The position numbers and the translations under genes were made by a program. The notes under the pieces were generated by a model that was not told the DNA's origin, did not search any database, and saw only the letters and a program-made list of their open reading frames with translations. From sequence record OL770310: a stretch of DNA of 64,000 nt. The stretch is one strand, 5' to 3'. Positions 29,209 to 42,960 of the stretch are shown here, in pieces. The DNA comes from Escherichia phage PSa2. Position 1 is the stretch's first letter, and every line of letters begins with the position of its first letter.

Positions 29209-29284
29209 TGGTAGTTAGTAGTGGATTTGAACCACTGTAGTCGCTCCGTATGAAGGAGGTGCATAACCTCTCTGCCAACTAACT
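29209..29284 (-). tRNA. tRNA, anticodon CAU (Met / fMet / Ile2 type)
   Basis: hand-folded: acceptor 7/7 Watson-Crick, T-arm AGTGG-TTCAAAT-CCACT, anticodon loop UUCAUAC, CCA encoded. Confidence 0.55.
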
Positions 29285-29380
29285 ATTATGTTTTACTAGA
29301 CTAAGTAAGTATTCTTTATACTCTTTAGACCAATTAGCTTTTTTAAACTTTCCTGGACGCATAGTCTTACTTCCTAAATT

Positions 29381-29457
29381 TGGTACTCCAGGAGGGATTT
29401 AAACCCCCGATCTCTCGGTTATCAGCCGAGTGCTTTAGATCGCTAAGCTACCGAAGC
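29381..29457 (-). tRNA. tRNA-Ile (GAU)
   Basis: hand-folded: anticodon arm CUCGG-CUGAUAA-CCGAG; acceptor stem has 3 G-U pairs. Confidence 0.5.
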
Positions 29458-29458
29458 A

Positions 29459-29665
29459 TTAACATTTAATTACAGAACGTTTACCATTTCTAGGCGCACC
29501 TGGAAGTCGTGCACGTTCTGCCATTCTTCGCTTAATCTTTGGGATATTTTCTAGTGTTTGTTCTTCAGGCTTAATACCTGAAACACTACACCACTGATTA
29601 CCATCCCATGCGGTAATGATCATAACACCATTACCCATAATCTTTTCTGTGAAAGTAATTCTCAT
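29459..29665 (-). CDS. hypothetical protein
   Basis: 68-aa ORF. Confidence 0.4.
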   Translation of the reverse strand: MRITFTEKIMGNGVMIITAWDGNQWCSVSGIKPEEQTLENIPKIKRRMAERARLPGAPRNGKRSVIKC

Positions 29666-29958
29666 TATAACAACTCGTCTAAGTAAGAGGTATACTGGTA
29701 TTTAGCTTCACCAGTTTTATCTACTTCGACTTCTGTTCTAGGTACTTTTCGTACCAGACCGTGAATCATCTTATATTGAATAGATTTAGATGGTTCGTGA
29801 TCTTTAGGAAAGACCTGCTTAACTGTAACTACTTTAAATCCCTCACGTGGTGTTAGTACAACAACTTGATCACCTTCTTTGATTTTCCAAGACTCAGGAA
29901 ATTCATAAGTGTAGCGTTGACCACCGGTAAGGAATATAACAGAAAGATAACGTTTCAT
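29665..29958 (-). CDS. hypothetical protein
   Basis: 97-aa ORF. Confidence 0.45.
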   Translation of the reverse strand: MKRYLSVIFLTGGQRYTYEFPESWKIKEGDQVVVLTPREGFKVVTVKQVFPKDHEPSKSIQYKMIHGLVRKVPRTEVEVDKTGEAKYQYTSYLDELL

Positions 29959-29988
29959 TTGGTTTTCCTCTCATTAATTTATACAAAC

Positions 29989-30018
29989 ATTATATCAAGA
30001 AATAAGAGGAAAGGCAAA
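29989..30018 (-). promoter_or_regulatory. sigma70 early promoter
   Basis: promoter family motif. Confidence 0.5.
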
Positions 30019-30032
30019 TGAATTTTTAAATT

Positions 30033-30107
30033 TGGTGCTCCCACCAGGAATCGAACCCGGTTCAGATGCTTACAAGGCAACTGCATCGCCAGCAATGCTT
30101 TAGGAGC
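30033..30107 (-). tRNA. tRNA-Thr (UGU)
   Basis: hand-folded: T-arm CCGGG-TTCGATT-CCTGG, loop CUUGUAA. Confidence 0.55.
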
Positions 30108-30274
30108 AATAAACCCGTTATTTCAACGGGATTTCTTTTTCAAATACAGGAGACTTATCAGACATTACTGTCATAGCCAACTGCTGTAGAAATTCGAATG
30201 AGAGTTTTAAACGTTCTTCGCCCAACTCAACCTCAACGCGCTTCATTCGTTTATCTACCTTTATCTTTAGATTA

Positions 30275-30496
30275 TCAGCCATCTTCGGGTTCTCTTTGCT
30301 CAGCTATTGCTAGCCAGTCTGGTAAAAGAAACTTAGTACGAAATTCTTCATATGTTTCTTCCGGATGAAAGCTATAGCCTTGCTTTTCATCATTTAATAA
30401 AACCGAACCGTCTTCCTGCTCATAAGCTCGGTATGTTTCACCAATAATTAAAACTCGCCTATTAGGGTTTTTATTACGAAACTCAAAAACGTCCAT
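30275..30496 (-). CDS. hypothetical protein
   Basis: 73-aa ORF. Confidence 0.4.
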   Translation of the reverse strand: MDVFEFRNKNPNRRVLIIGETYRAYEQEDGSVLLNDEKQGYSFHPEETYEEFRTKFLLPDWLAIAEQREPEDG

Positions 30497-30511
30497 AACG
30501 TTTCCTTAAAT

Positions 30512-30586
30512 TGGTGCGGGATACGAGAGTCGAACTCGTGTCTACTGGTTGGAAGCCAGTTATTCTAGCCACTGAACTAATCACGC
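30512..30586 (-). tRNA. tRNA-Gly (UCC)
   Basis: hand-folded: anticodon arm ACUGG-CUUCCAA-CCAGU; 3' half resembles bacterial tRNA-Gly. Confidence 0.6.
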
Positions 30587-30592
30587 ATAAAT

Positions 30593-30668
30593 TGGCTGGA
30601 GAAGGAGGAATCGAACCTACCATTAACGGAGTCAAAGGCCGTTGTGCTAACCGTTACACTACTCTCCA
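30593..30668 (-). tRNA. tRNA-Gln (UUG)
   Basis: hand-folded: loop CUUUGAC, 3' end CCAGCCA as in bacterial tRNA-Gln. Confidence 0.55.
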
Positions 30669-30674
30669 AGTATT

Positions 30675-30750
30675 TGGCTGGGATGCCACGGATCGAACGT
30701 GGAACCTTCGGAGTCAGAGGCCGACGATCTGCCAATTGATCTACATCCCA
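30675..30750 (-). tRNA. tRNA-Gln (CUG)
   Basis: hand-folded: acceptor 7/7, loop CUCUGAC. Confidence 0.55.
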
Positions 30751-30758
30751 ATAATTTT

Positions 30759-30959
30759 TTATTCTTCAGGAACCGTGGCTATTGGATCTGGTTCTTCTAG
30801 ACGTTTACCATTATGATCGACACGAATAATGCCACAACCTTCACAGATTACAACAGCACCATAGCCTTCTTTAACTTCGGCTTCTGTAATCAGACCAGAT
30901 AAATCACCAGTATCTTTGCCCCACATATCAATAGAGCATTCTTTGCAGAAATCAGCCAT
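30759..30959 (-). CDS. zinc-ribbon-like small protein (CxxC...CxxC)
   Basis: 66-aa ORF. Confidence 0.4.
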   Translation of the reverse strand: MADFCKECSIDMWGKDTGDLSGLITEAEVKEGYGAVVICEGCGIIRVDHNGKRLEEPDPIATVPEE

Positions 30960-30983
30960 ATTTTATTTCCTATTTAAGTTAAT

Positions 30984-31058
30984 TGGTGCATCCTCAGGGA
31001 ATCGAACCCCGATCGTAAAGTTCGTAGCTTTACATTCTTTCCGTTGAAATAAGGACGC
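30984..31058 (-). tRNA. tRNA-Arg (ACG)
   Basis: hand-folded: anticodon arm UAAAG-CUACGAA-CUUUA. Confidence 0.6.
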
Positions 31059-31064
31059 AATATT

Positions 31065-31141
31065 TGGGGTGGCTAGTGGAATTCGAATCCACATAGGCCT
31101 GATTCACAATCAGGATCATTAACCAATTATGATATAGCCAC
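31065..31141 (-). tRNA. tRNA-His (GUG)
   Basis: hand-folded: anticodon arm CCUGA-UUGUGAA-UCAGG, discriminator C. Confidence 0.6.
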
Positions 31142-31502
31142 AATTGAAAACTCGTAGGGTTAGCGAAACCATCCTCAAATAGTATTTTCTAGAATACTAA
31201 TCAAGTTATCTCCTATTGCACGAAGCTCAAGACGAGTACGAATTTTCAATTGTGGCGGCTCTCCGAAACTCATCACACTAACAACTAGTTGATTACACCT
31301 GGATTCTCGCCCAGGAAATTCTCTAGAAAGGTGCACCGTTACTCTTTGAGCCATTGAATATCAAGAAGCAGAAGGACTTGAACCTTCATGAGATAGACCA
31401 TTTATCTCAGCCTCGTTTTCGGGTATCTTATGAGGAGTGGATGTTCCCCTTACGCCCTTTAGGAAGCCCCGTCTACCGATTCCGGCATACTTCAAGAATT
31501 AT

Positions 31503-31706
31503 TTAAAACTTGTAACCTTCGGGAACCTTATCCTTAACACCAATATACTCAGCTTGGATGTAGTATGTTGGCACATGATCTTTAGGTAGATCTTTATTTA
31601 CATCATTAACTTCCATCAAGGCTTCGGCCTCGGTGTCAAATGGACGATACCAGATTTCACCACCCCAGCCACGTTCGCTTTCGGTATACTTAACAATGTG
31701 TTTCAT
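31503..31706 (-). CDS. hypothetical protein
   Basis: track ORF 31503-31757 trimmed to internal Met so it does not overlap the tRNA. Confidence 0.4.
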   Translation of the reverse strand: MKHIVKYTESERGWGGEIWYRPFDTEAEALMEVNDVNKDLPKDHVPTYYIQAEYIGVKDKVPEGYKF

Positions 31707-31724
31707 AAGGTTTTCCTTATTAGT

Positions 31725-31814
31725 TGGAGGAAGGTAATGGAGTCGAACCATCACCATATCGCTACAGCGGGCAGGTTTTCAAGACCTGTTACATACCACT
31801 ATGTCCTACCTTCC
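31725..31814 (-). tRNA. tRNA-Ser (UGA), long variable arm
   Basis: hand-folded: acceptor 7/7, loop CUUGAAA, ~90 nt. Confidence 0.55.
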
Positions 31815-31821
31815 AGTTGTT

Positions 31822-31914
31822 TGGCGGAAGAAGAGAGATTCGAACTCTCAAGCCTGCTTTCACAAGTCAGCCACTTTCCAAGCGGTTTTCGTCACCTAAT
31901 CGATTTGCTCTTCC
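31822..31914 (-). tRNA. type II tRNA, anticodon tentatively GGA (Ser)
   Basis: acceptor and T-arm (GAGAG-TTCGAAT-CTCTC) clear; anticodon arm assignment uncertain. Confidence 0.4.
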
Positions 31915-32088
31915 GTAGATCTTAGGATTAAATCATAAACCTCATTAGCGCATACTGGAAGTATGAGATTGTACATCTTTTGGTCGTACCTCTGACCATA
32001 TTCTATAAACACATACTCTTTAGTTAATGTATTAATAGCCAACCAGATATCAGTTACAGGAGTTTTCATCGTGATTTAATCCAATGTT

Positions 32089-32169
32089 TGGTAGGGATGG
32101 AGGGACTCGAACCCACACCCGAAGACTAGAACCTAAATCTAGCGCGTCTGCCAATTTCGCCACATCCCC
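32089..32169 (-). tRNA. tRNA-Leu (UAG)
   Basis: hand-folded: anticodon arm CUAGA-UUUAGGU-UCUAG. Confidence 0.45.
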
Positions 32170-32176
32170 ATTTTAT

Positions 32177-32395
32177 TTAGTTAGAAATAAATAATAATCC
32201 CGCAACAATGGAACCTACGCCACTGAATACCATTATCAGCATAGCTTCTAAGCTGATAAAGCGGACAGTATATGGAGCGCCCCAAGAATAATCAGTAAAG
32301 AAAGTTTTCTTTTCTTTAGCTAAATCTTTAACAATTCTAAAATAGATAGCTAGTGCTAAAGCTGCAAGAACTACAGAGGCTGCTAAGAATACCAT
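32177..32395 (-). CDS. small membrane protein
   Basis: 72-aa ORF, two hydrophobic segments. Confidence 0.4.
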   Translation of the reverse strand: MVFLAASVVLAALALAIYFRIVKDLAKEKKTFFTDYSWGAPYTVRFISLEAMLIMVFSGVGSIVAGLLFISN

Positions 32396-32415
32396 ATTAT
32401 TTCCTTAATTTGTTT

Positions 32416-32490
32416 GGTGGAGTCACTCAGAATTGAACTGAGTTCCACTGCTTGCAAGGCAGTAAGTTTAACCAAATAACCTATGACCCC
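32416..32490 (-). tRNA. tRNA-Ala (UGC)
   Basis: hand-folded: G3-U70 pair present, loop CUUGCAA. Confidence 0.55.
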
Positions 32491-32496
32491 GAATTT

Positions 32497-32570
32497 TGGT
32501 GGAGAAAGAGGGAGTTGAACCCTCGTCTTCTGCGTGCAAAGCAGATGTTCTACCATTAAACTATATCCCC
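32497..32570 (-). tRNA. tRNA, anticodon UGC by simplest fold (Ala-like, second copy)
   Basis: hand-folded: anticodon arm UCUGC-UUUGCAC-GCAGA, G3-U70; one acceptor mismatch. Confidence 0.45.
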
Positions 32571-32925
32571 AAAATCTTTAAGTTTACTAAGGCTATTAGC
32601 TCGGTGTGCGTACTGCCCTCAGACATTAGCCAGTAGAGAACAGCCGCTCTTCACAAACCCGATACACTATTCAGTTGCCGCTGAATCTAGTGGACTAATC
32701 TAGAACTTATTGCAAAGTATCCCCCGCCATTAGGGGTCTAATTGCAACTGTGCTTGTTGGCAGCCAGTCCTAGGTCGAGCTAATACCTTAGTGAACTAAA
32801 TTGATGGATATCAGACTAATTTTGCTACGGCGTTTATCCTGAGGATCTCTTTTTCGGTAGCTCTGCTAGTGTAGACGTCATACACCTGATATCTAGGCAG
32901 CTATTTTCACATCAATTTATATAAA

Positions 32926-32955
32926 TATTATAACAAGAAATTAAGCATCAAGCAA
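32926..32955 (-). promoter_or_regulatory. sigma70 early promoter
   Basis: promoter family motif. Confidence 0.5.
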
Positions 32956-33307
32956 GTACATTTTTAGCAATTTCTTGTAGTTCCTTAACGTCACTAACGA
33001 AAAGGTAGTCAGAGCTTCCAGAGTGCATACTCTGCATAACCACACCACCATCCGGTGCATCTTCTTTCAAGGTAAGTCCTAACCAGAACTCGGCAAAACT
33101 AGGTGTTACCTCACCTTGACTTGCCTTGAACACATCGCCTTCTGTGATCTCTTGACCAGTGGAGAGTCCCATGTATGGTACGTTCAGATCAATATCTTTG
33201 TAGAACTCAGCTAGATCTTGCTCGAAATCCCAACCTTTAGAGATAGCGAACTCCATTGTTACATGACCGAAATAGCCTTGAACCTTGCTTGATAATTGCA
33301 TTTGCAA
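32948..33307 (-). CDS. hypothetical protein
   Basis: 119-aa ORF. Confidence 0.5.
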   Translation of the reverse strand: MQMQLSSKVQGYFGHVTMEFAISKGWDFEQDLAEFYKDIDLNVPYMGLSTGQEITEGDVFKASQGEVTPSFAEFWLGLTLKEDAPDGGVVMQSMHSGSSDYLFVSDVKELQEIAKNVLA

Positions 33308-33326
33308 TTCCTTATTTTGAGTTAAT

Positions 33327-33400
33327 TGGTACTCGGTGATAGAATCGAACTATCGCAACCGCCGTGTAAAGACGGGGTTCTCCCATTAAACTAACCGAGC
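33327..33400 (-). tRNA. tRNA-Val (UAC)
   Basis: hand-folded: T-arm GATAG-TTCGATT-CTATC, loop UUUACAC. Confidence 0.55.
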
Positions 33401-33404
33401 AATT

Positions 33405-33482
33405 TGGTGGATTGCCTGGGATTCGAACCCAGAACTGACGGATTAAAGGTCCGCTACTCTTATCCAGTTGAGCTAGCAATCC
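33405..33482 (-). tRNA. tRNA-Lys (UUU)
   Basis: hand-folded: acceptor 7/7, loop CCUUUAA (C at position 33). Confidence 0.5.
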
Positions 33483-33868
33483 AATTTTTCTACTAATAAT
33501 TTAAAAGCATCTAGTACAGGTACTTCAAACCATTCTCCAGATACTCTATAATCTTTAAGAAGATTATGTAATTCTTTCTCTGTACGTCTTTTATCCGACG
33601 AAAATCTGAAATGGTATAGCTTGTAGTCTCTATTAGGTGAATAAGTTTGATAACTTGTTAACCTCTCATTCACATCTATAGTCATACCTATTTTATACAT
33701 GCCTGGCCATGCTGGATTACCAATTACATATACAAAACCTTCCGTTATAGGTATTTTATGCTCCCTTTTATACTTTAAGAGATTTAAGGCTGCCATTCGA
33801 TAACAGAATCTAAACTCTGAAGTTTTTAACTTACCTTCTTTACCTGAAATTTCGTTATATTTGCTCAT
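33473..33868 (-). CDS. T5orf172 / GIY-YIG-like domain protein
   Basis: 131-aa ORF; GFVYVIGNPAWPGMYKIGMT ... GEWFE pattern. Confidence 0.55.
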   Translation of the reverse strand: MSKYNEISGKEGKLKTSEFRFCYRMAALNLLKYKREHKIPITEGFVYVIGNPAWPGMYKIGMTIDVNERLTSYQTYSPNRDYKLYHFRFSSDKRRTEKELHNLLKDYRVSGEWFEVPVLDAFKLLVEKLDC

Positions 33869-34122
33869 ATAAGCTCTTATGAGCTTATCATCTATAATGA
33901 AGTTATCAGGAAGGTTTAAGGCAGCTAAAAACTTTATTAATTAGCATAGACTTCTTTAATAGAGTAAACTTTTAAGTAAGGATGATTAATACCAAATTCC
34001 GCCATCACTTCATTTTCATCTTTACCGTAATAGGCTAATGGATACTTCTTACGATCTTTACTAGAACGTAAATCACTTACTTTTAAACGAAATAATTTCA
34101 TTTCGAAATCCTTCTATTAAAT

Positions 34123-34200
34123 TGGAAGCGGGTGCAGGAATCGAACCTACCTCTTTCTAGCTTATGAGACTAGAGATCTCTACCAGAGATCTAACCCGCA
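34123..34200 (-). tRNA. tRNA-Met (CAU)
   Basis: hand-folded: D-arm GATC/GATC, loop CUCAUAA; one acceptor mismatch. Confidence 0.5.
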
Positions 34201-34206
34201 ATTGTT

Positions 34207-34284
34207 TGGTCTCCGTGGGAGGATTTGAACCCACGACCCTATCGCCCCAAACGAAACGCTCTGGCCAAACTGAGCTACACGGAG
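34207..34284 (-). tRNA. tRNA-Pro (UGG)
   Basis: hand-folded: acceptor 7/7, loop UUUGGGG. Confidence 0.55.
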
Positions 34285-34317
34285 AATATTCTTTGTTAAC
34301 TCACTTTATAAAATATA

Positions 34318-34346
34318 TTATACAGAGAATTAAGCTAAATAGCAAC
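34318..34346 (-). promoter_or_regulatory. sigma70 early promoter
   Basis: promoter family motif. Confidence 0.5.
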
Positions 34347-34593
34347 TACATTTTTTAATAAATTTACTTATTAGGTAAGTCACCGAGCTATCAACTCATG
34401 CTAGCGAGAAAGTTTGCGAGACCTTCTTTAAGTACTAGAACACACCCGCCGATGTGTCGGACTTACTTAATAAGTAAACTTTCGTTTACTTACACCTACC
34501 TGGTCGGGAGGATTTTCAGCGACTAGAACCGGCCGGAAACTCATCGCCTTGTTTATCTAGGAGTCCGTTCTCTAGGAAGCAGAAACCTAAATT

Positions 34594-34667
34594 TGGTGCG
34601 GTCGGAGGGAATCGAACCCTCAACTTTTGGTTGGCAACCAAAAATTATACCTTTTAACTACGAACGC
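34594..34667 (-). tRNA. tRNA-Gly (GCC)
   Basis: hand-folded: anticodon arm UUUGG-UUGCCAA-CCAAA. Confidence 0.55.
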
Positions 34668-34669
34668 AT

Positions 34670-34880
34670 AATAAGTCAATCTAGGCAGGACTTGAACCTG
34701 CTATCACTTGTGCGGATTTACGAGAACCATTCTTTCACTCGAATCGAACGAGCTTCTACCCTCGGCAAGCTGGTGTCCCCTCTCCACCACGCTAGAATGA
34801 TAATTAATGCCTGCTCCTTTGAATCAAGAAGTCCACCCCGGACTTTGGGTCTTTGCAGTACATCACGCTGCTCTGATGTT
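34670..34880 (-). other. tRNA-like segment: two canonical T-arm motifs but no pairing acceptor stems found
   Basis: minus-strand GCAGG-TTCAAGT-CCTGC and GCTCG-TTCGATT-CGAGT without matching 5' acceptor strands. Confidence 0.3.
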
Positions 34881-34956
34881 TGGTACACCCACTAGGACTT
34901 GAACCTAGAACCCTCCGCTTAAGAGGCGGTAGCTCTAACCATTGAGCTATGGATGT
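34881..34956 (-). tRNA. tRNA, anticodon CUU by simplest fold (Lys-like)
   Basis: hand-folded: T-arm CTAGG-TTCAAGT-CCTAG, loop CUCUUAA. Confidence 0.45.
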
Positions 34957-35032
34957 ATTATTATGTTTTGCAGTGCTCTAAATATAGACACTTCCCACGC
35001 GGTGGTTATCTATACCAGCGTCCTGCAAAAAT

Positions 35033-35109
35033 TGGCGCGACCGATGGGATTCGAACCCACATTTTCTCCCGTGACAGGGGAGTACCATTACCAAGCCAGC
35101 CCCGATCGC
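35033..35109 (-). tRNA. tRNA-Asp (GUC)
   Basis: hand-folded: anticodon arm CUCCC-CUGUCAC-GGGAG. Confidence 0.6.
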
Positions 35110-35118
35110 ATAATTTAT

Positions 35119-35304
35119 TTACTCAGTTTTGAGTTTTTCGATAGCTTCCTCAACCTCTTTTAGAGCTTCACGACGGGCATTCTGTTGCTGCATATCTTGA
35201 ATTAATGTCAGTTTTTGGTTTTCAATTTCTTGATCCCAAACCTTAATATTATTAATCAGACTATCACGATCAGCTTCTAGTCGAGCAATTGCACGAGTTG
35301 TCAT
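35119..35304 (-). CDS. small coiled-coil protein
   Basis: 61-aa ORF. Confidence 0.4.
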   Translation of the reverse strand: MTTRAIARLEADRDSLINNIKVWDQEIENQKLTLIQDMQQQNARREALKEVEEAIEKLKTE

Positions 35305-35405
35305 ATCTATTTCCTCAGTTATTAATGAAAATGGTATCTGTGACTGAATTCAATATCAGTAATGATAGCTGGTTGGCTACCGGTTTACTTAACTCTACAC
35401 AGAAT

Positions 35406-35488
35406 ATGGCGGGCCGTGTAGGATTCGAACCTACGTTGTCTTTCGACATGGATTAACAGTCCACCGCCAAACCGCTTGGCTAACGACC
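35406..35488 (-). tRNA. tRNA with anticodon GUU (Asn) and an unusual 13-nt variable arm
   Basis: hand-folded: anticodon arm GUGGA-CUGUUAA-UCCAU; variable hairpin GTCGAAAGAC. Confidence 0.4.
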
Positions 35489-35495
35489 CTAAAAT

Positions 35496-35571
35496 TTGGA
35501 CGACCGCATGAGATTCGAACTCACATAAGGAGGTTTTGCAGGCCTCCGCCTAAGCCATTCAGCCAACGGTC
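35496..35571 (-). tRNA. tRNA, anticodon tentatively GCA (Cys), enlarged anticodon loop
   Basis: acceptor and T-arm clear; anticodon stem GGAGG/CCTCC encloses a 9-nt loop. Confidence 0.35.
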
Positions 35572-35750
35572 GAGTTATCTTGCTTTTCGAGATTAGTAAA
35601 CTCTAGATCTTTAGAATGTCCTATAGATCTAGCATAATAGCCATCTCCAGCATCATAGCCTGATTTACCACACTTACACATCTTAAACTCGCGTAAACGT
35701 GTAAATATATGTTCAGAACCACAACACTTAAATTTAACTAGCTTTTTCAT
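35559..35750 (-). CDS. Cys-rich small protein
   Basis: 63-aa ORF; 3' end overlaps tRNA, true extent uncertain. Confidence 0.35.
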   Translation of the reverse strand: MKKLVKFKCCGSEHIFTRLREFKMCKCGKSGYDAGDGYYARSIGHSKDLEFTNLEKQDNSTVG

Positions 35751-35989
35751 CCAACACGCTCCGGCAGGTCTTCCAGTTTATATTCAGTAGCCACATTAGC
35801 AGCATCTAGTAACAAACCCATATGTTTAAGAATTCTAGTGATAGCCTCGCCTTCTGCTTCTTCTACAAAGCAGCGTAGTTGCATGAAGTCAATACCACCA
35901 TCCATACCAGAGAAAATGTTAAGTAAGCGAAGCATTACCAGCTTACGTTCTTTCAATTCTTGTTCTGTCATGTTGCTTCTCCAGTTCAA
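35747..35989 (-). CDS. hypothetical protein
   Basis: 80-aa ORF. Confidence 0.45.
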   Translation of the reverse strand: MNWRSNMTEQELKERKLVMLRLLNIFSGMDGGIDFMQLRCFVEEAEGEAITRILKHMGLLLDAANVATEYKLEDLPERVG

Positions 35990-36000
35990 TTTATGAAATA

Positions 36001-36030
36001 ATTATACAGAACTTTAAGCGGTTAAGCAAC
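36001..36030 (-). promoter_or_regulatory. sigma70 early promoter
   Basis: promoter family motif. Confidence 0.55.
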
Positions 36031-36309
36031 TACATTTTTCAGAAATATGATGCCTTTCTTTTTCTTCTTATACTTCCACGTTAACGGGTTCTGTCTATTA
36101 TGAACGCTTGAGATCTTTGTCTCGTCAAAGTTCTTCAATACCATGTAATCACAGGCCAACTGTTCTAGTGGAATGTGATCTCCGTCAAAAGCGTAAACGT
36201 AAGGCTGTTGACTGGCACGATAATGATAGACTTTGTTAATTCTGCGTTTCAGTGACTTATCCGCACAGTAAATAAAGAAGTTTTCAGGATGCATCAGCAT
36301 CTCCTTCAA
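36022..36309 (-). CDS. hypothetical protein
   Basis: 95-aa ORF. Confidence 0.45.
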   Translation of the reverse strand: MKEMLMHPENFFIYCADKSLKRRINKVYHYRASQQPYVYAFDGDHIPLEQLACDYMVLKNFDETKISSVHNRQNPLTWKYKKKKKGIIFLKNVVA

Positions 36310-36311
36310 AT

Positions 36312-36386
36312 TGGTGCACCCTGTTCGAATTGAACGAACCTCTCAAGCTCTTCAGGCAAGCGCTAATCCATCTCAGCTAAAGGTGC
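36312..36386 (-). tRNA. tRNA-Phe (GAA)
   Basis: hand-folded: T-arm GTTCG-TTCAATT-CGAAC, loop CUGAAGA; weak anticodon stem. Confidence 0.45.
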
Positions 36387-36392
36387 AAATAT

Positions 36393-36470
36393 TGGCAAAC
36401 CTACTAGGACTCGAACCTAGACCGTACGGTTTTGGAGACCGACATGCTGTCCAGTAACACTCTAGGAATG
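36393..36470 (-). tRNA. tRNA-Trp (CCA) candidate
   Basis: anticodon arm UCGGU-CUCCAAA-ACCGU resembles bacterial tRNA-Trp; acceptor pairing poor, 5' end uncertain. Confidence 0.35.
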
Positions 36471-36477
36471 CAGAAAT

Positions 36478-36554
36478 TGGCGTCCTGTGCGGGGATCGAA
36501 CCCGCAAATCCTACCTTGAAAGGGTAGTGACTTTACCAGTTTGTCTAACAGGAC
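36478..36554 (-). tRNA. tRNA-Glu (UUC)
   Basis: hand-folded: acceptor 7/7, T-arm GCGGG-TTCGATC-CCCGC, loop CUUUCAA. Confidence 0.6.
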
Positions 36555-36561
36555 TTAAATT

Positions 36562-36652
36562 TGGTGTTGGATGATGGAGTCGAACCACCCGAGACCCTTC
36601 CGAGTCGGCAGATTTACAGTCTGCTTCGCTACCTCTACGATACTAATCCAAC
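36562..36652 (-). tRNA. tRNA-Tyr (GUA), long variable arm
   Basis: hand-folded: acceptor 7/7, anticodon arm GCAGA-CUGUAAA-UCUGC. Confidence 0.6.
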
Positions 36653-36777
36653 ATATTTGAATGAAAAGTAAGTCGGTTAAACTCAAGGTGGAATATTTCA
36701 GGATTTCCTGACTTTACCCATAAAAGTAACTCGCTTAGTTACTTCTCATTCAGATATGTTTTCCAAATTAGATAACT

Positions 36778-36807
36778 ATTATATCAAGTTTTGAAGGACT
36801 GAGCAAG
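36778..36807 (-). promoter_or_regulatory. sigma70 early promoter
   Basis: promoter family motif, degenerate. Confidence 0.4.
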
Positions 36808-36842
36808 TCAAATTTTAAAGAACTTGCTCAGTGCTACATCAG

Positions 36843-37118
36843 TTACTCGAAGCTAGGAGTGACACTCAGTTTGAATGGAAGCTCGAACACTTCTTCATAA
36901 TCATCATTGAGCGTAATTACACGACCTTCTAGCTTAGTCATGGTGATTTCGATATCAGCCCTTGCATCAGGAGCCATACCAGCTTCCACACATTTAGCTT
37001 TAACTTCCGGCAGAAGTTCTACATCGTAGAAATAAAGCCATTCAATCTCACCTTCCCAGCCACCCCAGGATTTACAAACAGCACTTTCAACACCAGTTGC
37101 AGTAACACGTTTTGACAT
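36843..37118 (-). CDS. hypothetical acidic protein
   Basis: 91-aa ORF. Confidence 0.5.
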   Translation of the reverse strand: MSKRVTATGVESAVCKSWGGWEGEIEWLYFYDVELLPEVKAKCVEAGMAPDARADIEITMTKLEGRVITLNDDYEEVFELPFKLSVTPSFE

Positions 37119-37148
37119 TCGTTAACTCCTTCATCAATTTATATAACT

Positions 37149-37179
37149 ATTATAACAGAAATCTTAAGTAAAAAGCAAG
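37149..37179 (-). promoter_or_regulatory. sigma70 early promoter
   Basis: promoter family motif. Confidence 0.5.
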
Positions 37180-37208
37180 TACATTTTTAAAATTTCTGCT
37201 TGGAGGAG

Positions 37209-37460
37209 TTAAACTCCTGATTCTTCAGCCAGATCAAGCCCAACCAACGTGATTGCCATAATAGCCGCGCCATGTTCTTTCTCTCCTAGCTCTTTGGCTT
37301 GAGTGAGAATATTAAGGAATTGCTTTTGAAAATCTGCAACTTCTTCTGTCATGCCTGCTTCAGCAATGATTCCTTTCAGCATAAAGCGTTGTGCCGTAAT
37401 TTCAGAATTAGCCATTTGTTTTCTCCAGTTGTTTAGAATGTAAGCCAAACTTAGGATCAT
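37209..37460 (-). CDS. hypothetical protein
   Basis: 83-aa ORF. Confidence 0.45.
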   Translation of the reverse strand: MILSLAYILNNWRKQMANSEITAQRFMLKGIIAEAGMTEEVADFQKQFLNILTQAKELGEKEHGAAIMAITLVGLDLAEESGV

Positions 37461-37566
37461 AGCGATCGTAAGTAGTACCGTTAGTTGAAGCCTTGATGCT
37501 ATGAAAACGACAGTACATAAATTTACGTAGTGCTTTCTTAATAGCTTTCATTTTATTTCCTTAATT

Positions 37567-37643
37567 TGGTAGGGGTGGTGGGATTCGAACCCACAAAACC
37601 TGAATTTTAAGTCCAGTACCTATGCCAATTCGATTACACCCCC
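37567..37643 (-). tRNA. class I tRNA with anticodon UAA by simplest fold (Leu-decoding)
   Basis: hand-folded: T-arm GTGGG-TTCGAAT-CCCAC, anticodon arm CUGGA-CUUAAAA-UUCAG, short variable loop. Confidence 0.4.
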
Positions 37644-37651
37644 ATGTAATC

Positions 37652-38005
37652 TTAGCGAATCTCTAAACCCTGGAAATATCGAGGGAATGGAGAGCCAACT
37701 TCAAAATTGATGCCCCAATTAAGTTCAACGAGTTCAGATTTATTAAGATCTAGGCCATTACCTTCAAAGATATAGCCGTAAACCGCAGGGAACATAGCTG
37801 CTAGATCTTCCATATCGGAATGAGCATTGTGTTCTTCACGGAACTGCTCAAACTCTTCAAAGAACTTTTCTAGGAAGAACTCAGGTACGATGAACGTTAC
37901 CACATCAGTAGAATCATCGGTACGATACACCGTAGCTTGGAACAAGCCAACACCTAAAAGGTTTATTGCCGGAGTAGTAAAAATATCCATCTTAGCCTCG
38001 CTCAA
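37652..38005 (-). CDS. hypothetical protein
   Basis: 117-aa ORF. Confidence 0.5.
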   Translation of the reverse strand: MSEAKMDIFTTPAINLLGVGLFQATVYRTDDSTDVVTFIVPEFFLEKFFEEFEQFREEHNAHSDMEDLAAMFPAVYGYIFEGNGLDLNKSELVELNWGINFEVGSPFPRYFQGLEIR

Positions 38006-38177
38006 TGTCTAGACAAATTGCATATTCAGGGTTGATACCAGTACCTTTACATGTAGGACATTCCCATTCTCTACAGAAAATATCCCCAGGTTCTGCATCA
38101 TCCTGCCTACCACCACCATGACAATCCTTACACCGACATTCTTCTAAGGCTTTCTTCATTTCATAGAATCTAGACAT
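37992..38177 (-). CDS. zinc-finger-like small protein
   Basis: 61-aa ORF; CRCKDCHG ... CPTCKGTG. Confidence 0.4.
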   Translation of the reverse strand: MSRFYEMKKALEECRCKDCHGGGRQDDAEPGDIFCREWECPTCKGTGINPEYAICLDIERG

Positions 38178-38194
38178 ATAGTCTCCTAGTTAAT

Positions 38195-38272
38195 TGGTGG
38201 CTCCCGGAGGATTCGAACCTACCTACCTTTCGCTTATGAGGCGACGGCTCATACCAAATGAGCTTGAGAACC
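38195..38272 (-). tRNA. tRNA, anticodon CAU (Met / fMet / Ile2 type)
   Basis: hand-folded: D-arm GCTC/GAGC, loop CUCAUAA. Confidence 0.5.
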
Positions 38273-38277
38273 AAATT

Positions 38278-38371
38278 TGGAGGAAGATGCCAGATTCGAA
38301 CTGGCACACCGTGTCTCCACAGCTACTGGCTGTTTAGCAAACAGCTCCCTTACCTTTAGGGTTAATCTTCC
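38278..38371 (-). tRNA. tRNA-Ser (GCU), long variable arm
   Basis: hand-folded: acceptor 7/7, anticodon arm GCUGU-UUGCUAA-ACAGC. Confidence 0.5.
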
Positions 38372-38386
38372 GAATTTATGAATATA

Positions 38387-38414
38387 TTATACAGAAAATT
38401 TCGGCATTAAGCAA
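38387..38414 (-). promoter_or_regulatory. sigma70 early promoter
   Basis: promoter family motif. Confidence 0.55.
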
Positions 38415-38422
38415 GTGAAATT

Positions 38423-42014: not shown

Positions 42015-42089
42015 TGGCCGAGGTGACAGGATTCGAACCTGCATAAAGGAATTTAGAAGACTCCTGCCTATCCCTTAGACTACACCCCG
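42015..42089 (-). tRNA. tRNA-Arg (UCU)
   Basis: hand-folded: D-arm GUCU/AGGC, anticodon arm GGAGU-CUUCUAA-AUUCC. Confidence 0.55.
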
Positions 42090-42099
42090 TTTAGGTATT

Positions 42100-42900
42100 T
42101 TTAAGAACTCTCGTAAAAGTCCTTAAAGATACCCGACGGTAGGTAGGGTCAGCCCCCTCAGATTAAGCTCTGCAGCCCTTCCGTCAGACAATATCTTCCA
42201 GTTTAAGTCAAGGTGACTTTGTGGTTATGTTCTCCGTATGTGAAGAACTCGGTTAGGCTTAGGTCATGACTCCCAGCCTACTGCTGCCGCTCAACAGGAA
42301 TTATCGCGAATTACCTGTACTATTGGGCACCATTAGTGACATCTCTCATGTCAGCGTTTCCCACTCTCATATTCACGCGGTCTGTTAGAATCGCACCTCC
42401 GATTTTCGATGCGAAGCTGGATGCCTAGTCTCAGGTTAAACGGGGTACACACTAGGCAGTGATCCCGAGTTCCGAGTTTGGTTGAGGCCGTCAGGTTTCC
42501 TCGTGGTTTAGCTGTTTCGATTCTAACCTAATACTGATCAGGCGGCGTACCTCCTGAACCGTCATAGTATGTACTCCAGCAGCGAATGCTTATCCGGTAT
42601 AAGCCCGAGTTATCCGATTCTTTCCAGAAGGAGCAGTGAAGCTCAATGTCAGCCTGTGAGCATCTGGCAGTGTTATCACATAAGTCAGTTCGACACCCCA
42701 CTAACATAAACTAGAGAAGAGTTTACGAGATTTCGGGACAGCTCCCGAGTTTTCCACAGATTTTCAGTTCCCTATCAATAGCAATAAGCGTTAGCTCGTA
42801 GCCTCTCTCAGAGTACTTACTAGTCTCCAACTCACCGACTCTATTCAGTGGAATAGCTATCCTACTAGGAATCACTAAACTCACTCAGCGTAATCGGCTC
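42100..42900 (-). other. ORF-free, GC-richer 0.8-kb transcribed leader (candidate structured RNA)
   Basis: no ORF of 60 aa or more on either strand; between promoter at 42914-42942 and tRNA-Arg. Confidence 0.35.
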
Positions 42901-42942: not shown

Positions 42943-42960
42943 CATTTAGCAAATCAATTT

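What the first reader, a model, noticed from the sequence alone, without database searches (positions are those of the whole stretch)
29209..38371. Near-complete tRNA set (about 29 genes plus tRNA-Arg at 42 kb) with several non-canonical members
Hand folding finds minus-strand tRNAs for nearly all amino acids, including three CAU tRNAs (29209, 34123, 38195), two Gln, two Gly, two Arg, two Lys-type and three or four Ser. Unusual candidates: a class I tRNA whose simplest fold gives anticodon UAA (37567-37643), a GUU-anticodon tRNA with a 13-nt variable hairpin (35406-35488), a tRNA with a 9-nt anticodon loop around GCA (35496-35571), and a Trp-like tRNA with poor acceptor pairing (36393-36470). 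All folds here are manual and approximate.
Basis: seen in the sequence. Interest (0 to 1): 0.45.

Follow-up and report, generated by a model that had tools for sequence, protein, structure and literature searches.

The report
T5-like phage full tRNA gene cluster
This is the well-known tRNA-rich region of a T5-like (EPS7/SP15-type) phage: 30 tRNA genes for all 20 amino acids. The oddly shaped members are real, conserved phage tRNA variants, not errors or decaying genes.

Summary
ARAGORN and the Rfam tRNA model independently call the same 29 minus-strand tRNA genes: 28 in 29209-38371 plus Arg-UCU at 42015-42089. They cover all 20 amino acids and all encode CCA. A thirtieth gene, Ser-GGA at 31822-31914, is missed by both tools.

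The DNA is 97.9% identical to phage EPS7. Gene order matches the annotated T5 tRNA region, including its stable RNAs and early promoters. The cluster itself is therefore already known.

- **Leu-UAA** is a class I tRNA, from a covarying family that is almost entirely phage-borne.
- **Asn-GUU** carries a 13-nt hairpin arm. This arm covaries across T5-like, T4-like and other phages and was absent from 185,579 bacterial genomes.
- **Trp** has tandem U·U mismatches conserved across four genera while neighbouring pairs covary.

tRNA-Tyr is identical to the SP15 tRNA-Tyr, whose longer variable loop is reported as needed to suppress Retron-Eco7.

The best explanation is a self-sufficient tRNA set that is partly resistant to host nucleases and also supplies codons rare in the host. 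Overall interest is modest. The switching of tRNA structural class is the part worth following up.

The parts
29209..29284 (-). tRNA-Met(CAU), elongator type
   Evidence: 49.6 bits. 75/76 identical to T5 tRNAM.
29381..29457 (-). tRNA-Ile(GAU)
   Evidence: 62.3 bits. 75/77 identical to T5.
30033..30107 (-). tRNA-Thr(UGU). Its anticodon arm is identical to that of T5 tRNA-Thr and reads U36AAGCA41, against host U36AAUCA41.
   Evidence: Identical to SP15. T5 Thr is one of three T5 tRNAs that neutralise PARIS (PMC12409363).
30512..30586 (-). tRNA-Gly(UCC)
   Evidence: 65.5 bits.
30593..30668 (-). tRNA-Gln(UUG)
   Evidence: 50 bits. Identical to SP15; divergent from the T5 allele.
30675..30750 (-). 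tRNA-Gln(CUG)
   Evidence: 56.4 bits.
30984..31058 (-). tRNA-Arg(ACG); no tRNA-Arg(ACG) is annotated or called in T5
   Evidence: (53.4 bits).
31065..31141 (-). tRNA-His(GUG) with C73 but T, not G, at position -1
   Evidence: (59.9 bits). Identical to T5 and SP15.
31143..31248 (-). Homolog of T5 stable RNA 'RNAIII' (function unknown)
   Evidence: 95% identity over 106 nt to the T5 misc_RNA.
31353..31496 (-). Homolog of T5 tRNA-like stable RNA 'RNA1'
   Evidence: 81% identity over 145 nt.
31725..31814 (-). tRNA-Ser(UGA), with U73
   Evidence: 29.1 bits; 40.5 bits on the tRNA-Sec model. 80/90 identical to T5 tRNAS1.
31822..31914 (-). Cryptic tRNA-Ser(GGA)-like gene, 93 nt, with G73 and encoded CCA. 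Not called by ARAGORN or RF00005.
   Evidence: 24 bits on the tRNA-Sec model. Homolog of T5 tRNAS2(GGA) and of the annotated Sw2 tRNA-Ser. The D stem TCG/CGA is compensatory relative to T5 TAG/CTA. The MFE fold is a five-arm cloverleaf.
32089..32169 (-). tRNA-Leu(UAG) with the variable region shortened to 9 nt (host leuW has 13). The D arm is 18/20 identical to the host.
   Evidence: (53.5 bits).
32415..32490 (-). tRNA-Ala(UGC), copy 1
   Evidence: 59.6 bits.
32497..32570 (-). tRNA-Ala(UGC), copy 2
   Evidence: 72.3 bits.
32651..32785 (-). Homolog of T5 stable RNA 'RNA2H'
   Evidence: 78% identity over 135 nt.
33327..33400 (-). tRNA-Val(UAC)
   Evidence: 57.8 bits. 71/74 identical to T5.
33405..33482 (-). 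tRNA-Lys(UUU) allele with C33 in place of the near-universal U33. Reads U36AAUCC41 (A41C relative to the host).
   Evidence: (59.9 bits). 77 phage records match at 99% identity or more, and all 40 listed are 100% identical, including BF23 and EPS7.
33473..33868 (-). ORF with a T5orf172/MUG113 domain (GIY-YIG-like, putative homing endonuclease), inserted between tRNA genes
   Evidence: Pfam PF13455 at 2.6e-18 and PF10544 at 4.4e-15.
34123..34200 (-). Initiator-type tRNA(CAU) with a U1·U72 mismatch
   Evidence: (41.6 bits). 77/78 identical to T5 tRNAfM.
34207..34284 (-). tRNA-Pro(UGG)
   Evidence: 49.1 bits.
34410..34461 (-). Partial homolog of T5 stable RNA 'RNAIV'
   Evidence: 81% identity over 53 nt.
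34594..34667 (-). tRNA-Gly(GCC); no tRNA-Gly(GCC) is annotated or called in T5
   Evidence: (64.4 bits).
34675..34799 (-). Homolog of T5 tRNA-like stable RNA 'RNA2'
   Evidence: 90% identity over 125 nt.
34881..34956 (-). tRNA-Lys(CUU); no tRNA-Lys(CUU) is annotated or called in T5
   Evidence: (64.8 bits).
35033..35109 (-). tRNA-Asp(GUC)
   Evidence: 46 bits. 74/77 identical to T5.
35332..35404 (-). Homolog of T5 'RNA3' (putative tRNA-like RNA)
   Evidence: 95% identity over 73 nt.
35407..35489 (-). tRNA-Asn(GUU) with a 13-nt variable arm (GUC-GAAA-GAC + AAC) and G73. Its anticodon arm differs from host asnT only at pair 28-42.
   Evidence: (59 bits). The variable helix covaries in 13 homologs. 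Identical in SP15. Pattern scan: 28 viral contigs against 0 bacterial genomes.
35497..35572 (-). tRNA-Cys(GCA) with a C31·A39 mismatch (equivalent to a 9-nt loop) and U73
   Evidence: (40.7 bits). Against T5, 5 of the 7 differences lie in the anticodon arm (Fisher p=0.007).
36312..36386 (-). tRNA-Phe(GAA)
   Evidence: 45.8 bits. Identical to T5.
36393..36469 (-). tRNA-Trp(CCA) with A1-U72 and G73 plus tandem U2·U71 and U3·U70 mismatches
   Evidence: (36.3 bits). The mismatches are invariant in four Demerecviridae genera while pairs 6-67 and 7-66 and the T stem covary. 238 phage records match at 99% identity or more.
36478..36554 (-). tRNA-Glu(UUC)
   Evidence: 61.1 bits.
36562..36652 (-). tRNA-Tyr(GUA). 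The anticodon arm is identical to host tyrU. The variable region is 18 nt against 13 in the host.
   Evidence: (32.6 bits). Identical to SP15 tRNA-Tyr, which is not cleaved in Retron-Eco7 cells and needs its longer variable loop to suppress the defence (PMC12673091).
37567..37643 (-). Class I tRNA-Leu(UAA): 5-nt variable loop, Leu-type D arm, A73
   Evidence: (57.4 bits). 19-member family with 98.9% of cells paired and 14 of 20 pairs showing double changes. Pattern scan: 60 viral loci against 4 MAG contigs.
38195..38272 (-). tRNA(CAU) of the Ile2 (lysidine) type
   Evidence: 40 bits. 86% identical to T5 tRNAI2(CAU).
38278..38371 (-). tRNA-Ser(GCU), with U73
   Evidence: (48.4 bits).
42015..42089 (-). 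tRNA-Arg(UCU)
   Evidence: 49.3 bits. 74/75 identical to T5.
42090..42723 (-). Homolog of T5 stable RNA 'RNAX', upstream of tRNA-Arg
   Evidence: Four BLAST segments at 80-93% identity.
38386..38414 (-). T5-type early promoter motif (TTGCTT-N-TATAAT...ATAAATT), directly upstream of Ser-GCU
   Evidence: Motif search. Equivalent to promoters annotated in T5.
37149..37178 (-). T5-type early promoter motif
36778..36806 (-). T5-type early promoter motif upstream of the Tyr-Glu-Trp-Phe group
   Evidence: T5 P14a lies in the same position. A strong promoter for phage tRNA-Tyr is reported in PMC11555353.
36001..36029 (-). T5-type early promoter motif
34317..34345 (-). T5-type early promoter motif upstream of Pro and fMet
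32927..32955 (-). T5-type early promoter motif
29989..30017 (-). T5-type early promoter motif
42924..42952 (-). T5-type early promoter motif upstream of RNAX and Arg-UCU

Best explanation
The region is the tRNA-rich early region of a T5-like phage (Demerecviridae, EPS7/SP15 type).

About 30 tRNA genes lie on one strand. They are interspersed with small ORFs, a GIY-YIG-like endonuclease gene and T5-type stable RNAs. Transcription from at least eight strong T5-type early promoters is inferred. Processing by host enzymes is also inferred; CCA is encoded in the genes.

Together the tRNAs cover all 20 amino acids and, by wobble rules, nearly all sense codons. This serves two purposes:
- **Keeping translation running under attack.** Host defence nucleases such as PARIS AriB, Retron-Eco7/Septu PtuAB, PrrC and P2 OLD cleave host tRNAs. 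The phage set replaces them.
- **Supplying rare codons.** The AT-rich phage uses several codons far more than its host does.

The 'non-canonical' members are functional alleles whose structural departures are under selection. Shown directly:
- The tRNA-Tyr here is identical to SP15 tRNA-Tyr. That tRNA is reported to stay uncleaved in Retron-Eco7 cells and to need its 5-nt-longer variable loop to suppress the defence.
- tRNA-Thr has the same anticodon arm as the T5 tRNA-Thr that helps neutralise PARIS.

Inferred only: the hairpin arm added to Asn, the arm removed or shortened in Leu, C33 in Lys-UUU, C31·A39 in Cys and the tandem U·U in Trp are likewise adaptations that change what host nucleases see, while keeping the host synthetase identity elements.
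For: **Identity of the region**
- 97.9% identity to EPS7 over 97% of the queried stretch (29000-38500), with 604 phage records matching.
- Same gene order as the annotated T5 region, including stable RNAs and promoters.
- Eight tRNAs, including Tyr, Asn, Leu-UAA and Trp, are identical to SP15.

**Gene calls**
- Two independent methods give the same 29 tRNAs.

**Selection on the odd members**
- Asn family: 98.1% of cells paired, and 2 of 4 variable-helix pairs show double changes.
- Class I Leu-UAA family: 98.9% paired, 14 of 20 pairs with double changes. A73, A15, U48, G18G19 and A20a are invariant. Those are the E. coli LeuRS determinants, and the long arm is dispensable for LeuRS (PMC9976931).
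- Trp: the U·U pairs are invariant while neighbouring pairs covary across four genera.

**Restriction to phages**
- Long-arm Asn pattern: 28 viral contigs against 0 of 185,579 bacterial genomes.
- Class I Leu-UAA pattern: 60 viral loci against 4 MAG contigs. Two of the four contigs carry dense tRNA arrays.
- Among bystander tRNAs, short variable regions occur in 24 of 49 Leu but only 1 of 75 Ser plus Tyr. This fits the synthetases' known need for the arm.

**Published function in T5-like phages**
- PARIS.
- Retron-Eco7 and PrrC.
- OLD.

**Codon usage of window ORFs**
- CTA 16.3, TTA 20.5, ATA 8.4, AGA 6.4 and GGA 14.3 per thousand, with GC3 of 0.35.
- All of these are rare codons in E. coli (my own knowledge), and each is read by a phage tRNA here.
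Against: - No expression, charging or cleavage data exist for this exact phage.
- The window's Asn keeps the host AriB site sequence U36AAUC|C41, and its Lys-UUU carries only the weaker of the two protective T5 substitutions. Resistance of these two alleles to PARIS is therefore unproven.
- Across the 14 near-identical window/T5 orthologs, differences are not concentrated in the anticodon arm: 10/204 against 23/675, p=0.30.
- tRNA-His lacks the G-1 that E. coli HisRS needs, and Trp lacks G2-C71 and G3-C70. Efficient charging of these two is uncertain.
- The loci in the survey were chosen with sequence patterns, so the Asn and Leu-UAA frequencies are biased.
Confidence: 0.85

Rival explanations
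1. Pure codon supplementation. The tRNAs exist only to match the AT-rich phage codon usage to a GC-richer host, and the odd structures are neutral drift tolerated by host enzymes.
For: - Phage ORFs use CTA, TTA, ATA, AGA, GGA, ACA and GTA heavily, with GC3 of 0.35.
- The cluster carries the matching U34 or Ile2-type tRNAs.
Against: - The set also includes tRNAs for codons that are abundant in the host, such as Gln-CUG, Lys-CUU and Gly-GCC.
- Published genetics show that T5-like tRNAs are needed specifically against PARIS, Retron-Eco7 and OLD.
- The odd features are conserved while neighbouring pairs covary, which is not drift.
- The same arm module recurs in unrelated phage families.
Confidence: 0.15
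2. The non-canonical members (Trp, Cys, Asn, Leu-UAA, Ser-GGA) are decaying pseudogenes or tRNA-like relics, like the T5 tRNA-like stable RNAs.
For: - Trp and Ser score low on the tRNA model: 36.3 and 29.1 bits, and 24 bits for Ser-GGA.
- The T5 annotation says several tRNAs, including Trp, Asn and Cys, do not become amber suppressors when given the suppressor anticodon.
- The MFE fold of Trp is not a cloverleaf.
Against: - Compensatory changes maintain every helix in the Asn, Leu and Trp families.
- The sequences are identical in tens to hundreds of phage records.
- Failure as amber suppressors is expected for tRNAs whose identity lies in the anticodon, which is the case for Asn, Trp and Cys (PMC9976931).
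Confidence: 0.05
3. Recoding or decoy. The arm-bearing tRNA-Asn(GUU) is not an ordinary Asn tRNA. Either SerRS charges it (G73 plus an extra arm), by analogy with the nematode nev-tRNAs that LeuRS charges, or it acts as an uncharged sponge for a nuclease.
For: - It carries several bacterial Ser determinants: G73, C72, G2-C71, C11-G24 and G30-C40, plus an extra arm.
- The AriB paper raises the idea that some viral tRNAs could act as inhibitors.
Against: - The Asn determinants GUU and G73 are invariant, and the anticodon arm is almost identical to the host's.
- The arm has only 3-4 bp, like tRNA-Tyr, which SerRS does not charge (my own knowledge of the Tyr-to-Ser conversion experiments).
- Pair 4-69 is U·G rather than R-Y, and the D arm is of class I type.
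- It is the only Asn tRNA in the cluster, and Asn codons make up 5% of phage codons.
Confidence: 0.06

Closest known systems
Phage T5 tRNA region (AY543070, about 28-41 kb)
   Same: - Same strand, order and neighbours.
- 14 tRNAs are near-identical (0-10 differences each).
- Same stable RNAs (RNAIII, RNA1, RNA2H, RNAIV, RNA2, RNA3, RNAX) and the same type of early promoter.
   Different: - The window adds Arg-ACG, Gly-GCC, Lys-CUU, Leu-UAA and a second Ala.
- It carries divergent alleles for both Gln, Leu-UAG, Ala, Lys-UUU, Pro, Asn, Tyr, Ser-GCU and Trp.
- T5 Asn is class I, and T5 Leu-UAG has a full-length arm.
- T5 has HNH endonuclease genes in the region where the window has a T5orf172 ORF.
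tRNA-rich region of phages EPS7 and SP15
   Same: - 97.9% DNA identity to EPS7.
- SP15 Tyr, Asn, Leu-UAA, Trp, His, Thr, Gln-UUG and Glu are identical to the window's.
- The SP15 region has been shown experimentally to defeat Retron-Eco7 through tRNA-Tyr.
   Different: - SP15 has a different Lys-UUU allele (with U33), a class I Leu-UAG and a different Ser-GCU.
- EPS7's own record annotates no tRNAs in this stretch.
Nuclease-resistant phage tRNA variants (T5 Lys/Thr/Asn against PARIS; mycobacteriophage anticodon-loop variants, eLife 2023)
   Same: A phage copy of a targeted host tRNA, with changes near the cleavage site. The window's Thr has the T5 anticodon arm, and its Lys carries A41C.
   Different: Several members here keep a host-like anticodon arm (Tyr 0/17, Asn 2/17, Trp 2/17 and Leu-UAG 2/17 differences). 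They differ instead in the variable arm or acceptor stem.
[quoted passage not shown]
   Same: [quoted passage not shown]
   Different: - nev-tRNAs are charged with Leu and carry full-length arms.
- Here the arm is a 3-4 bp mini-hairpin on a tRNA that otherwise looks like Asn.
- The class I Leu keeps the bacterial LeuRS determinants.

Membership tests
T5-like (Demerecviridae) tRNA-rich early region | DNA homology and shared gene order with the T5/EPS7 tRNA region | tested here: met
   97.9% identity to EPS7. Order matches the T5 annotation.
T5-like (Demerecviridae) tRNA-rich early region | More than 20 same-strand tRNA genes interspersed with small ORFs, T5 stable RNAs and T5-type early promoters | tested here: met
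   29 called tRNAs plus 1 cryptic. Seven stable-RNA homologs. Eight promoter motifs.
Canonical tRNA (Rfam RF00005) | Score at or above the 29-bit gathering threshold, and a cloverleaf called by an independent tool | tested here: met
   29 of 29 pass (29.1-72.3 bits) and are called by ARAGORN. Ser-GGA at 31822-31914 does not pass.
Bacterial tRNA-Leu (E. coli LeuRS identity set) | A73, the A15-U48 pair, G18G19 and A20a | tested here: met
   All are present in Leu-UAA 37567-37643 and invariant in 19 family members. The determinant list is from PMC9976931.
Bacterial tRNA-Leu (class II architecture) | Long variable arm of 10 nt or more | tested here: not met
   Leu-UAA has 5 nt and Leu-UAG has 9 nt. 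Host leuZ has 15 and leuW has 13.
Bacterial tRNA-Leu | Aminoacylation with leucine by the host LeuRS | not testable with these tools
   Needs a charging assay. Arm-less E. coli tRNA-Leu variants are reported to be active.
Bacterial tRNA-Asn (AsnRS identity set) | G34 U35 U36 and G73 | tested here: met
   Present in the window gene and invariant in 13 homologs.
Bacterial tRNA-Asn (class I architecture) | 4-5 nt variable loop | tested here: not met
   13 nt forming a 3-bp helix with a GAAA loop. Host asnT has 5 nt.
Bacterial tRNA-Ser (SerRS identity set), considered for the arm-bearing Asn | G73, C72, G2-C71, R4-Y69, C11-G24, G30-C40 and a large variable region | tested here: inconclusive
   G73, C72, G2-C71, C11-G24 and G30-C40 are present. 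Pair 4-69 is U·G. The arm is 13-15 nt against 19-23 nt in the phage's own Ser tRNAs.
Bacterial tRNA-Trp (TrpRS identity set) | CCA anticodon, G73 and A1-U72 | tested here: met
Bacterial tRNA-Trp (TrpRS identity set) | G2-C71 and G3-C70 | tested here: not met
   U2·U71 and U3·U70 in all four genera compared.
Bacterial tRNA-His | Encoded G-1 opposite C73 | tested here: not met
   T at -1 with C73 present. E. coli hisR has G-1.
Nuclease-resistant phage tRNA (PtuAB / Retron-Eco7) | Same sequence as a tRNA shown experimentally to escape cleavage | tested here: met
   Window tRNA-Tyr is identical to SP15 tRNA-Tyr. The experiments are in PMC12673091.
Nuclease-resistant phage tRNA (PARIS AriB) | Substitutions at the U36AAUC|A41 site like the tested T5 alleles | tested here: inconclusive
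   Thr has the T5 arm. Lys has only A41C and lacks U39A. Asn keeps the host sequence UAAUCC.

The most novel reading that the evidence does not exclude
Phage tRNA arrays may switch tRNA structural class systematically as a counter-defence.

- **Arms are dropped only where the host synthetase allows it.** Leu loses the variable arm. Ser and Tyr never do.
- **A portable mini-arm is added elsewhere.** A hairpin of 3-4 bp with a GNRA-like loop appears on Asn, Thr-UGU and occasionally Lys. These three are exactly the reported PARIS AriB targets. AriB cuts at 40|41, next to where the arm emerges.
- **Acceptor ends are also altered.** Trp carries tandem U·U, and His lacks G-1.

The arm-bearing Asn and Thr keep the host cleavage-site sequence. 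That would make steric shielding, rather than mutation of the site, the escape route.
Probability: 0.3. Interest if true: 0.6.

Novelty: already known. Interest (0 to 1): 0.3.

Why it matters
As a tRNA cluster it matters little: T5-like phages have long been known to carry one, and every allele here already sits in public phage records.

The value lies in the comparative by-products. The 'odd' tRNAs belong to conserved, almost exclusively phage-borne structural families. One such change, the longer variable loop of tRNA-Tyr, is already reported as needed to suppress a retron defence. If the Asn, Thr and Lys mini-arm and the arm-less Leu work the same way, they would be simple sequence markers for which host tRNA nucleases a phage has met. 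They would also provide ready-made nuclease-resistant tRNA scaffolds.

Tried and rejected
- **Permissive Rfam scan of 28500-42500.** It found nothing beyond tRNAs except chance-level hits (plastid UTR models on the antisense strand of tRNAs, permuted tmRNA at 27 bits, leader peptides). Rejected.
- **Generic sigma-70 and terminator scan.** It found no more sites than shuffled sequence (26 against 33 expected). I replaced it with a T5-specific promoter motif.
- **Test for differences concentrated in the anticodon arm.** Across the 14 window/T5 orthologs the difference is not significant (p=0.30). Only Cys stands out (p=0.007, uncorrected for 14 tests).
- **Pseudogene reading of Trp.** Rejected, because the U·U pairs are conserved while flanking pairs covary.
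- **Literature searches** for an arm-bearing tRNA-Asn or an arm-less tRNA-Leu in phages. None of the papers found describes them. The library lacks most subscription journals, so this is not proof of absence.
- **PARIS-sensitive phage Bas34.** I tried to link it to the window's alleles. Bas34 is SelmaRatti, not one of the phages I had matched, and no supplements were held. Left open.
- **Confirming the SP15 tRNA-Tyr sequence from the paper text.** This failed. Fetching the SP15 genome settled it.

Full report

Yes. ARAGORN finds 29 tRNA genes in the window, all on the minus strand. Twenty-eight lie between 29209 and 38371 and one (Arg-UCU) at 42015-42089. The Rfam tRNA covariance model finds the same 29 at its curated threshold, at 29.1-72.3 bits. 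Nothing else in the 64 kb reaches any Rfam threshold.

The anticodons are CAU x3, GAU, UGU, UCC, UUG, CUG, ACG, GUG, UGA, UAG, UGC x2, UAC, UUU, UGG, GCC, CUU, GUC, GUU, GCA, GAA, CCA, UUC, GUA, UAA, GCU and UCU. All 20 amino acids are covered. Every gene encodes its 3' CCA.

A thirtieth gene lies at 31822-31914. Neither tool calls it; it scores only 24 bits on the tRNA-Sec model. It is the homolog of T5 tRNA-Ser2(GGA) and of a tRNA-Ser annotated in phage Sw2. Its D stem has changed in a compensatory way relative to T5 (TCG/CGA against TAG/CTA). It folds into a five-arm cloverleaf with anticodon GGA.

**2. What is the region?**

The 9.5-kb stretch is 97.9% identical to Escherichia phage EPS7 and matches 604 phage records, nearly all T5-like Demerecviridae.

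The richly annotated T5 record shows the same gene order. By position and identity, the window's three CAU tRNAs correspond to:
- T5 tRNA-Met, 75/76 identical;
- initiator tRNA-fMet, 77/78 identical;
- tRNA-Ile2, 86% identical.

The non-coding gaps between tRNA genes hold homologs of T5's stable RNAs of unknown function:
- RNAIII at 31143-31248
- RNA1 at 31353-31496
- RNA2H at 32651-32785
- RNAIV at 34410-34461
- RNA2 at 34675-34799
- RNA3 at 35332-35404
- RNAX at 42090-42723

Eight copies of the T5 early-promoter motif face the tRNA genes. One sits immediately upstream of Ser-GCU and one upstream of the Tyr-Glu-Trp-Phe group. An ORF with a T5orf172/MUG113 domain, a GIY-YIG-like putative homing endonuclease, sits between Lys-UUU and fMet.

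Relative to T5 the cluster is a mosaic:
- 14 tRNAs are near-identical.
- About ten are replaced by divergent alleles: both Gln, Leu-UAG, Ala, Lys-UUU, Pro, Asn, Tyr, Ser-GCU and Trp.
- Five are extra: Arg-ACG, Gly-GCC, Lys-CUU, Leu-UAA and a second Ala.

Eight alleles, including Tyr, Asn, Leu-UAA and Trp, are identical to those of phage SP15.

**3. The four flagged oddities**

*(a) Leu-UAA, 37567-37643.*

It is a class I tRNA with a 5-nt variable loop, where host leuZ has 15 nt.

It is not an isolated curiosity. A pattern scan found 60 viral loci. Nineteen distinct homologs align without gaps. In that alignment 98.9% of cells are paired and 14 of 20 pairs show changes on both sides, well above the shuffled and slid controls.

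A73, A15, U48, G18G19 and A20a are invariant. These are the E. coli LeuRS determinants. The long arm is documented as dispensable for that enzyme.

The same pattern hit only four contigs in 185,579 bacterial and archaeal genomes. All four are MAG contigs. Two of them carry dense tRNA arrays of the phage kind.

*(b) Asn-GUU, 35407-35489.*

The 13-nt variable region forms GUC-GAAA-GAC.

Homologs occur in several unrelated groups:
- other Demerecviridae genera (Novosibvirus, Priunavirus);
- T4-like Klebsiella phages of 165-175 kb;
- a Phapecoctavirus.

Across 13 distinct sequences the variable helix is 100% paired. Two of its four pairs show double changes (C-G to U-A, and C-G to A-U). All other helices covary too. 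GUU and G73, the AsnRS determinants, are invariant.

The pattern was found in 28 viral contigs and in no bacterial genome. The pattern is narrow, so it excludes only this form of the tRNA.

The anticodon arm differs from host asnT only at pair 28-42. T5's own Asn is an unrelated class I tRNA.

*(c) Cys-GCA, 35497-35572.*

The canonical loop-closing pair is C31·A39. ARAGORN draws a 7-nt loop with a mismatch.

Against the T5 ortholog, 5 of 7 differences fall in the 17-nt anticodon arm. The Fisher test gives p=0.007, uncorrected for 14 tests.

*(d) Trp-CCA, 36393-36469.*

A1-U72 and G73 are kept, but positions 2·71 and 3·70 are both U·U.

The sequence matches 238 phage records at 99% identity or more. 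In Sugarlandvirus and Hongcheonvirus homologs, about 81% identical, pairs 6-67 and 7-66 and four T-stem pairs have changed in a compensatory way. The two U·U positions are unchanged. That is selection, not decay.

**4.

- Lys-UUU has C33 in place of the near-universal U33. 77 phage records match it at 99% identity or more, and the 40 listed, including BF23 and EPS7, are all 100% identical.
- tRNA-His has T, not G, at -1. This holds in every enterobacterial phage His gene I checked, from T5-like and T4-like phages. E. coli hisR has G-1.
- Leu-UAG has a 9-nt variable region containing a C-UUCG-G mini-hairpin, on an otherwise host-like body.
- Tyr has a host-identical anticodon arm but an 18-nt variable region where the host has 13.
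- Ser-UGA and Ser-GCU have U73.

**5. How it most likely works**

Published work on T5 and close relatives establishes the following:
- T5 tRNA-Lys, tRNA-Thr and tRNA-Asn neutralise PARIS. Its nuclease AriB cuts host Lys-UUU, Thr-UGU and Asn-GUU between positions 40 and 41.
- SP15 and T5 tRNA-Tyr defeat Retron-Eco7. Its PtuAB effector cuts host tRNA-Tyr in the variable loop, between U47 and C48. SP15 tRNA-Tyr is not cut, and it loses its protective effect when its 5-nt-longer variable loop (G47-C60) is deleted or swapped for the host loop.
- Phage tRNA-Lys overcomes a PrrC nuclease.
- Phage tRNA-Thr overcomes P2 OLD.

The window's tRNA-Tyr is base-for-base the SP15 tRNA-Tyr, so that result transfers directly. 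Its Thr has the T5 anticodon arm.

The window's ORFs are AT-rich at third positions (GC3 0.35). They use CTA, TTA, ATA, AGA and GGA at 16.3, 20.5, 8.4, 6.4 and 14.3 per thousand. By my own knowledge these rates are several-fold above E. coli usage. The cluster supplies tRNAs for exactly these codons.

I therefore read the cluster as a self-sufficient tRNA complement that does both jobs: replacing cleaved host tRNAs and supplying codons rare in the host.

What is shown and what is inferred:
- *Shown here:* the genes, their homology, their conservation and covariation, and the identity of the Tyr allele to the tested one.
- *Inferred:* transcription from the motifs, processing, charging, and the idea that the Asn arm, the arm-less Leu, C33, C31·A39 and the U·U pairs are nuclease-evasion features.

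**6. A pattern worth noting**

I surveyed the 688 distinct tRNAs found in the phage loci I had fetched. The sample is biased for Asn and Leu-UAA, because those loci were chosen with patterns for them. The other tRNAs are bystanders.
- Short variable regions occur in 24 of 49 non-UAA Leu tRNAs, but in only 1 of 75 Ser plus Tyr (p=5e-11). This fits the fact that LeuRS does not need the arm, while SerRS does.
- Mini-arms also appear on Thr-UGU (5 of 29), Lys-UUU (1 of 26), Lys-CUU (1 of 7), Cys (1 of 15) and CAU tRNAs (2 of 57). Those on Thr-UGU, Lys-CUU and one of the CAU tRNAs visibly form 3-4 bp with a GAAA or GUAA loop.
- Asn, Thr-UGU and Lys-UUU are the three reported AriB targets.
- The arm-bearing Asn, and the 87-nt Thr of two other T5-like phages, keep the host UAAUC site.

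This suggests steric shielding as an alternative to mutating the cleavage site. It is a hypothesis only.

Evidence against it:
- The resistance of the window's Asn and Lys alleles to AriB is untested.

**7. Comparison with what is known, and verdict**

The thing in the window is a member of the known T5-like tRNA-rich region. It meets every defining feature I could test. Individual tRNAs meet the identity sets of their host synthetases but fail class-level or acceptor-stem features:
- Leu lacks the long arm.
- Asn has an extra arm.
- Trp lacks G2-C71 and G3-C70.
- His lacks G-1.

The papers I could search did not describe the arm-bearing Asn or the arm-less Leu of phages. These genes are, however, routinely annotated as tRNA-Asn and tRNA-Leu in GenBank records.

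The novelty of the finding as given is 'already known', and interest is modest.

Noticed in passing
window 31065-31141 (-) and base 31142: tRNA-His has T rather than G at position -1, opposite C73. The same holds in the six other phage tRNA-His genes checked from phages of enteric bacteria (Proteus PM135, Providencia PSTCR5, four T4-like loci). E. coli hisR has G-1, the main HisRS determinant.
   Followed up: partly
window 33405-33482 (-): tRNA-Lys(UUU) has C33 instead of the near-universal U33, next to the bond that PrrC-type nucleases cut. 77 phage records match at 99% identity or more; the 40 listed, including BF23 and EPS7, are all 100% identical. SP15 and T5 carry other alleles with U33.
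   Followed up: partly
L009 4406-4492 and L019 8998-9084 (other T5-like phages); L095 2695-2786; L093 4379-4466: tRNA-Thr(UGU) of 87-92 nt and tRNA-Lys(UUU) of 88 nt with hairpin variable arms. The L009 and L019 Thr keep the host-like U36AAUCA41 AriB site. The window has no such Thr or Lys.
   Followed up: partly
window 31143-31248, 31353-31496, 32651-32785, 34410-34461, 34675-34799, 35332-35404, 42090-42723 (-): Homologs (78-95% identity) of T5's seven stable RNAs of unknown function, three of them tRNA-like. They fill the non-coding gaps of the cluster.
   Followed up: partly
window 33473-33868 (-): ORF with T5orf172/MUG113 domains (GIY-YIG-like putative homing endonuclease) between tRNA-Lys and tRNA-fMet. 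T5 has a small hypothetical ORF (T5.065) at that spot, and its endonuclease genes in the tRNA region are HNH-type and lie elsewhere. This fits cassette-like exchange of tRNA alleles.
   Followed up: partly
window 17079-58204, mostly minus strand: Eighteen copies of a long conserved T5-type early promoter motif (A-rich, then TTGCTT, N17-18, TATAAT, then ATAAATT). Seventeen of the eighteen are on the minus strand.
   Followed up: partly
window 28657-29025 (-), 38826-39518 (-), 39505-40578 (-), 40832-41776 (-): Flanking genes typical of T5-like phages: a small glycyl-radical (YfiD/GrcA-like) protein, a PnuC nicotinamide mononucleotide transporter, a NadR-like adenylyltransferase/AAA protein and an SPFH/Band 7 protein.
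   Followed up: no
window 31725-31814 and 38278-38371 (-): Both called tRNA-Ser genes have U73 rather than the G73 listed as a bacterial SerRS determinant. The cryptic Ser-GGA has G73.
   Followed up: no
window 34123-34200 (-): The initiator-type tRNA has a U1·U72 mismatch and U73. Its anticodon stem lacks the three consecutive G-C pairs typical of bacterial initiators (ARAGORN fold).
   Followed up: no
L101 31047-31123 (SP15), L022, L024, L027, L009, L020: Class I (77-nt) versions of tRNA-Leu(UAG) also exist in other T5-like phages. In the surveyed loci, 8 of 12 distinct tRNA-Leu(CAA) sequences are class I as well.
   Followed up: partly
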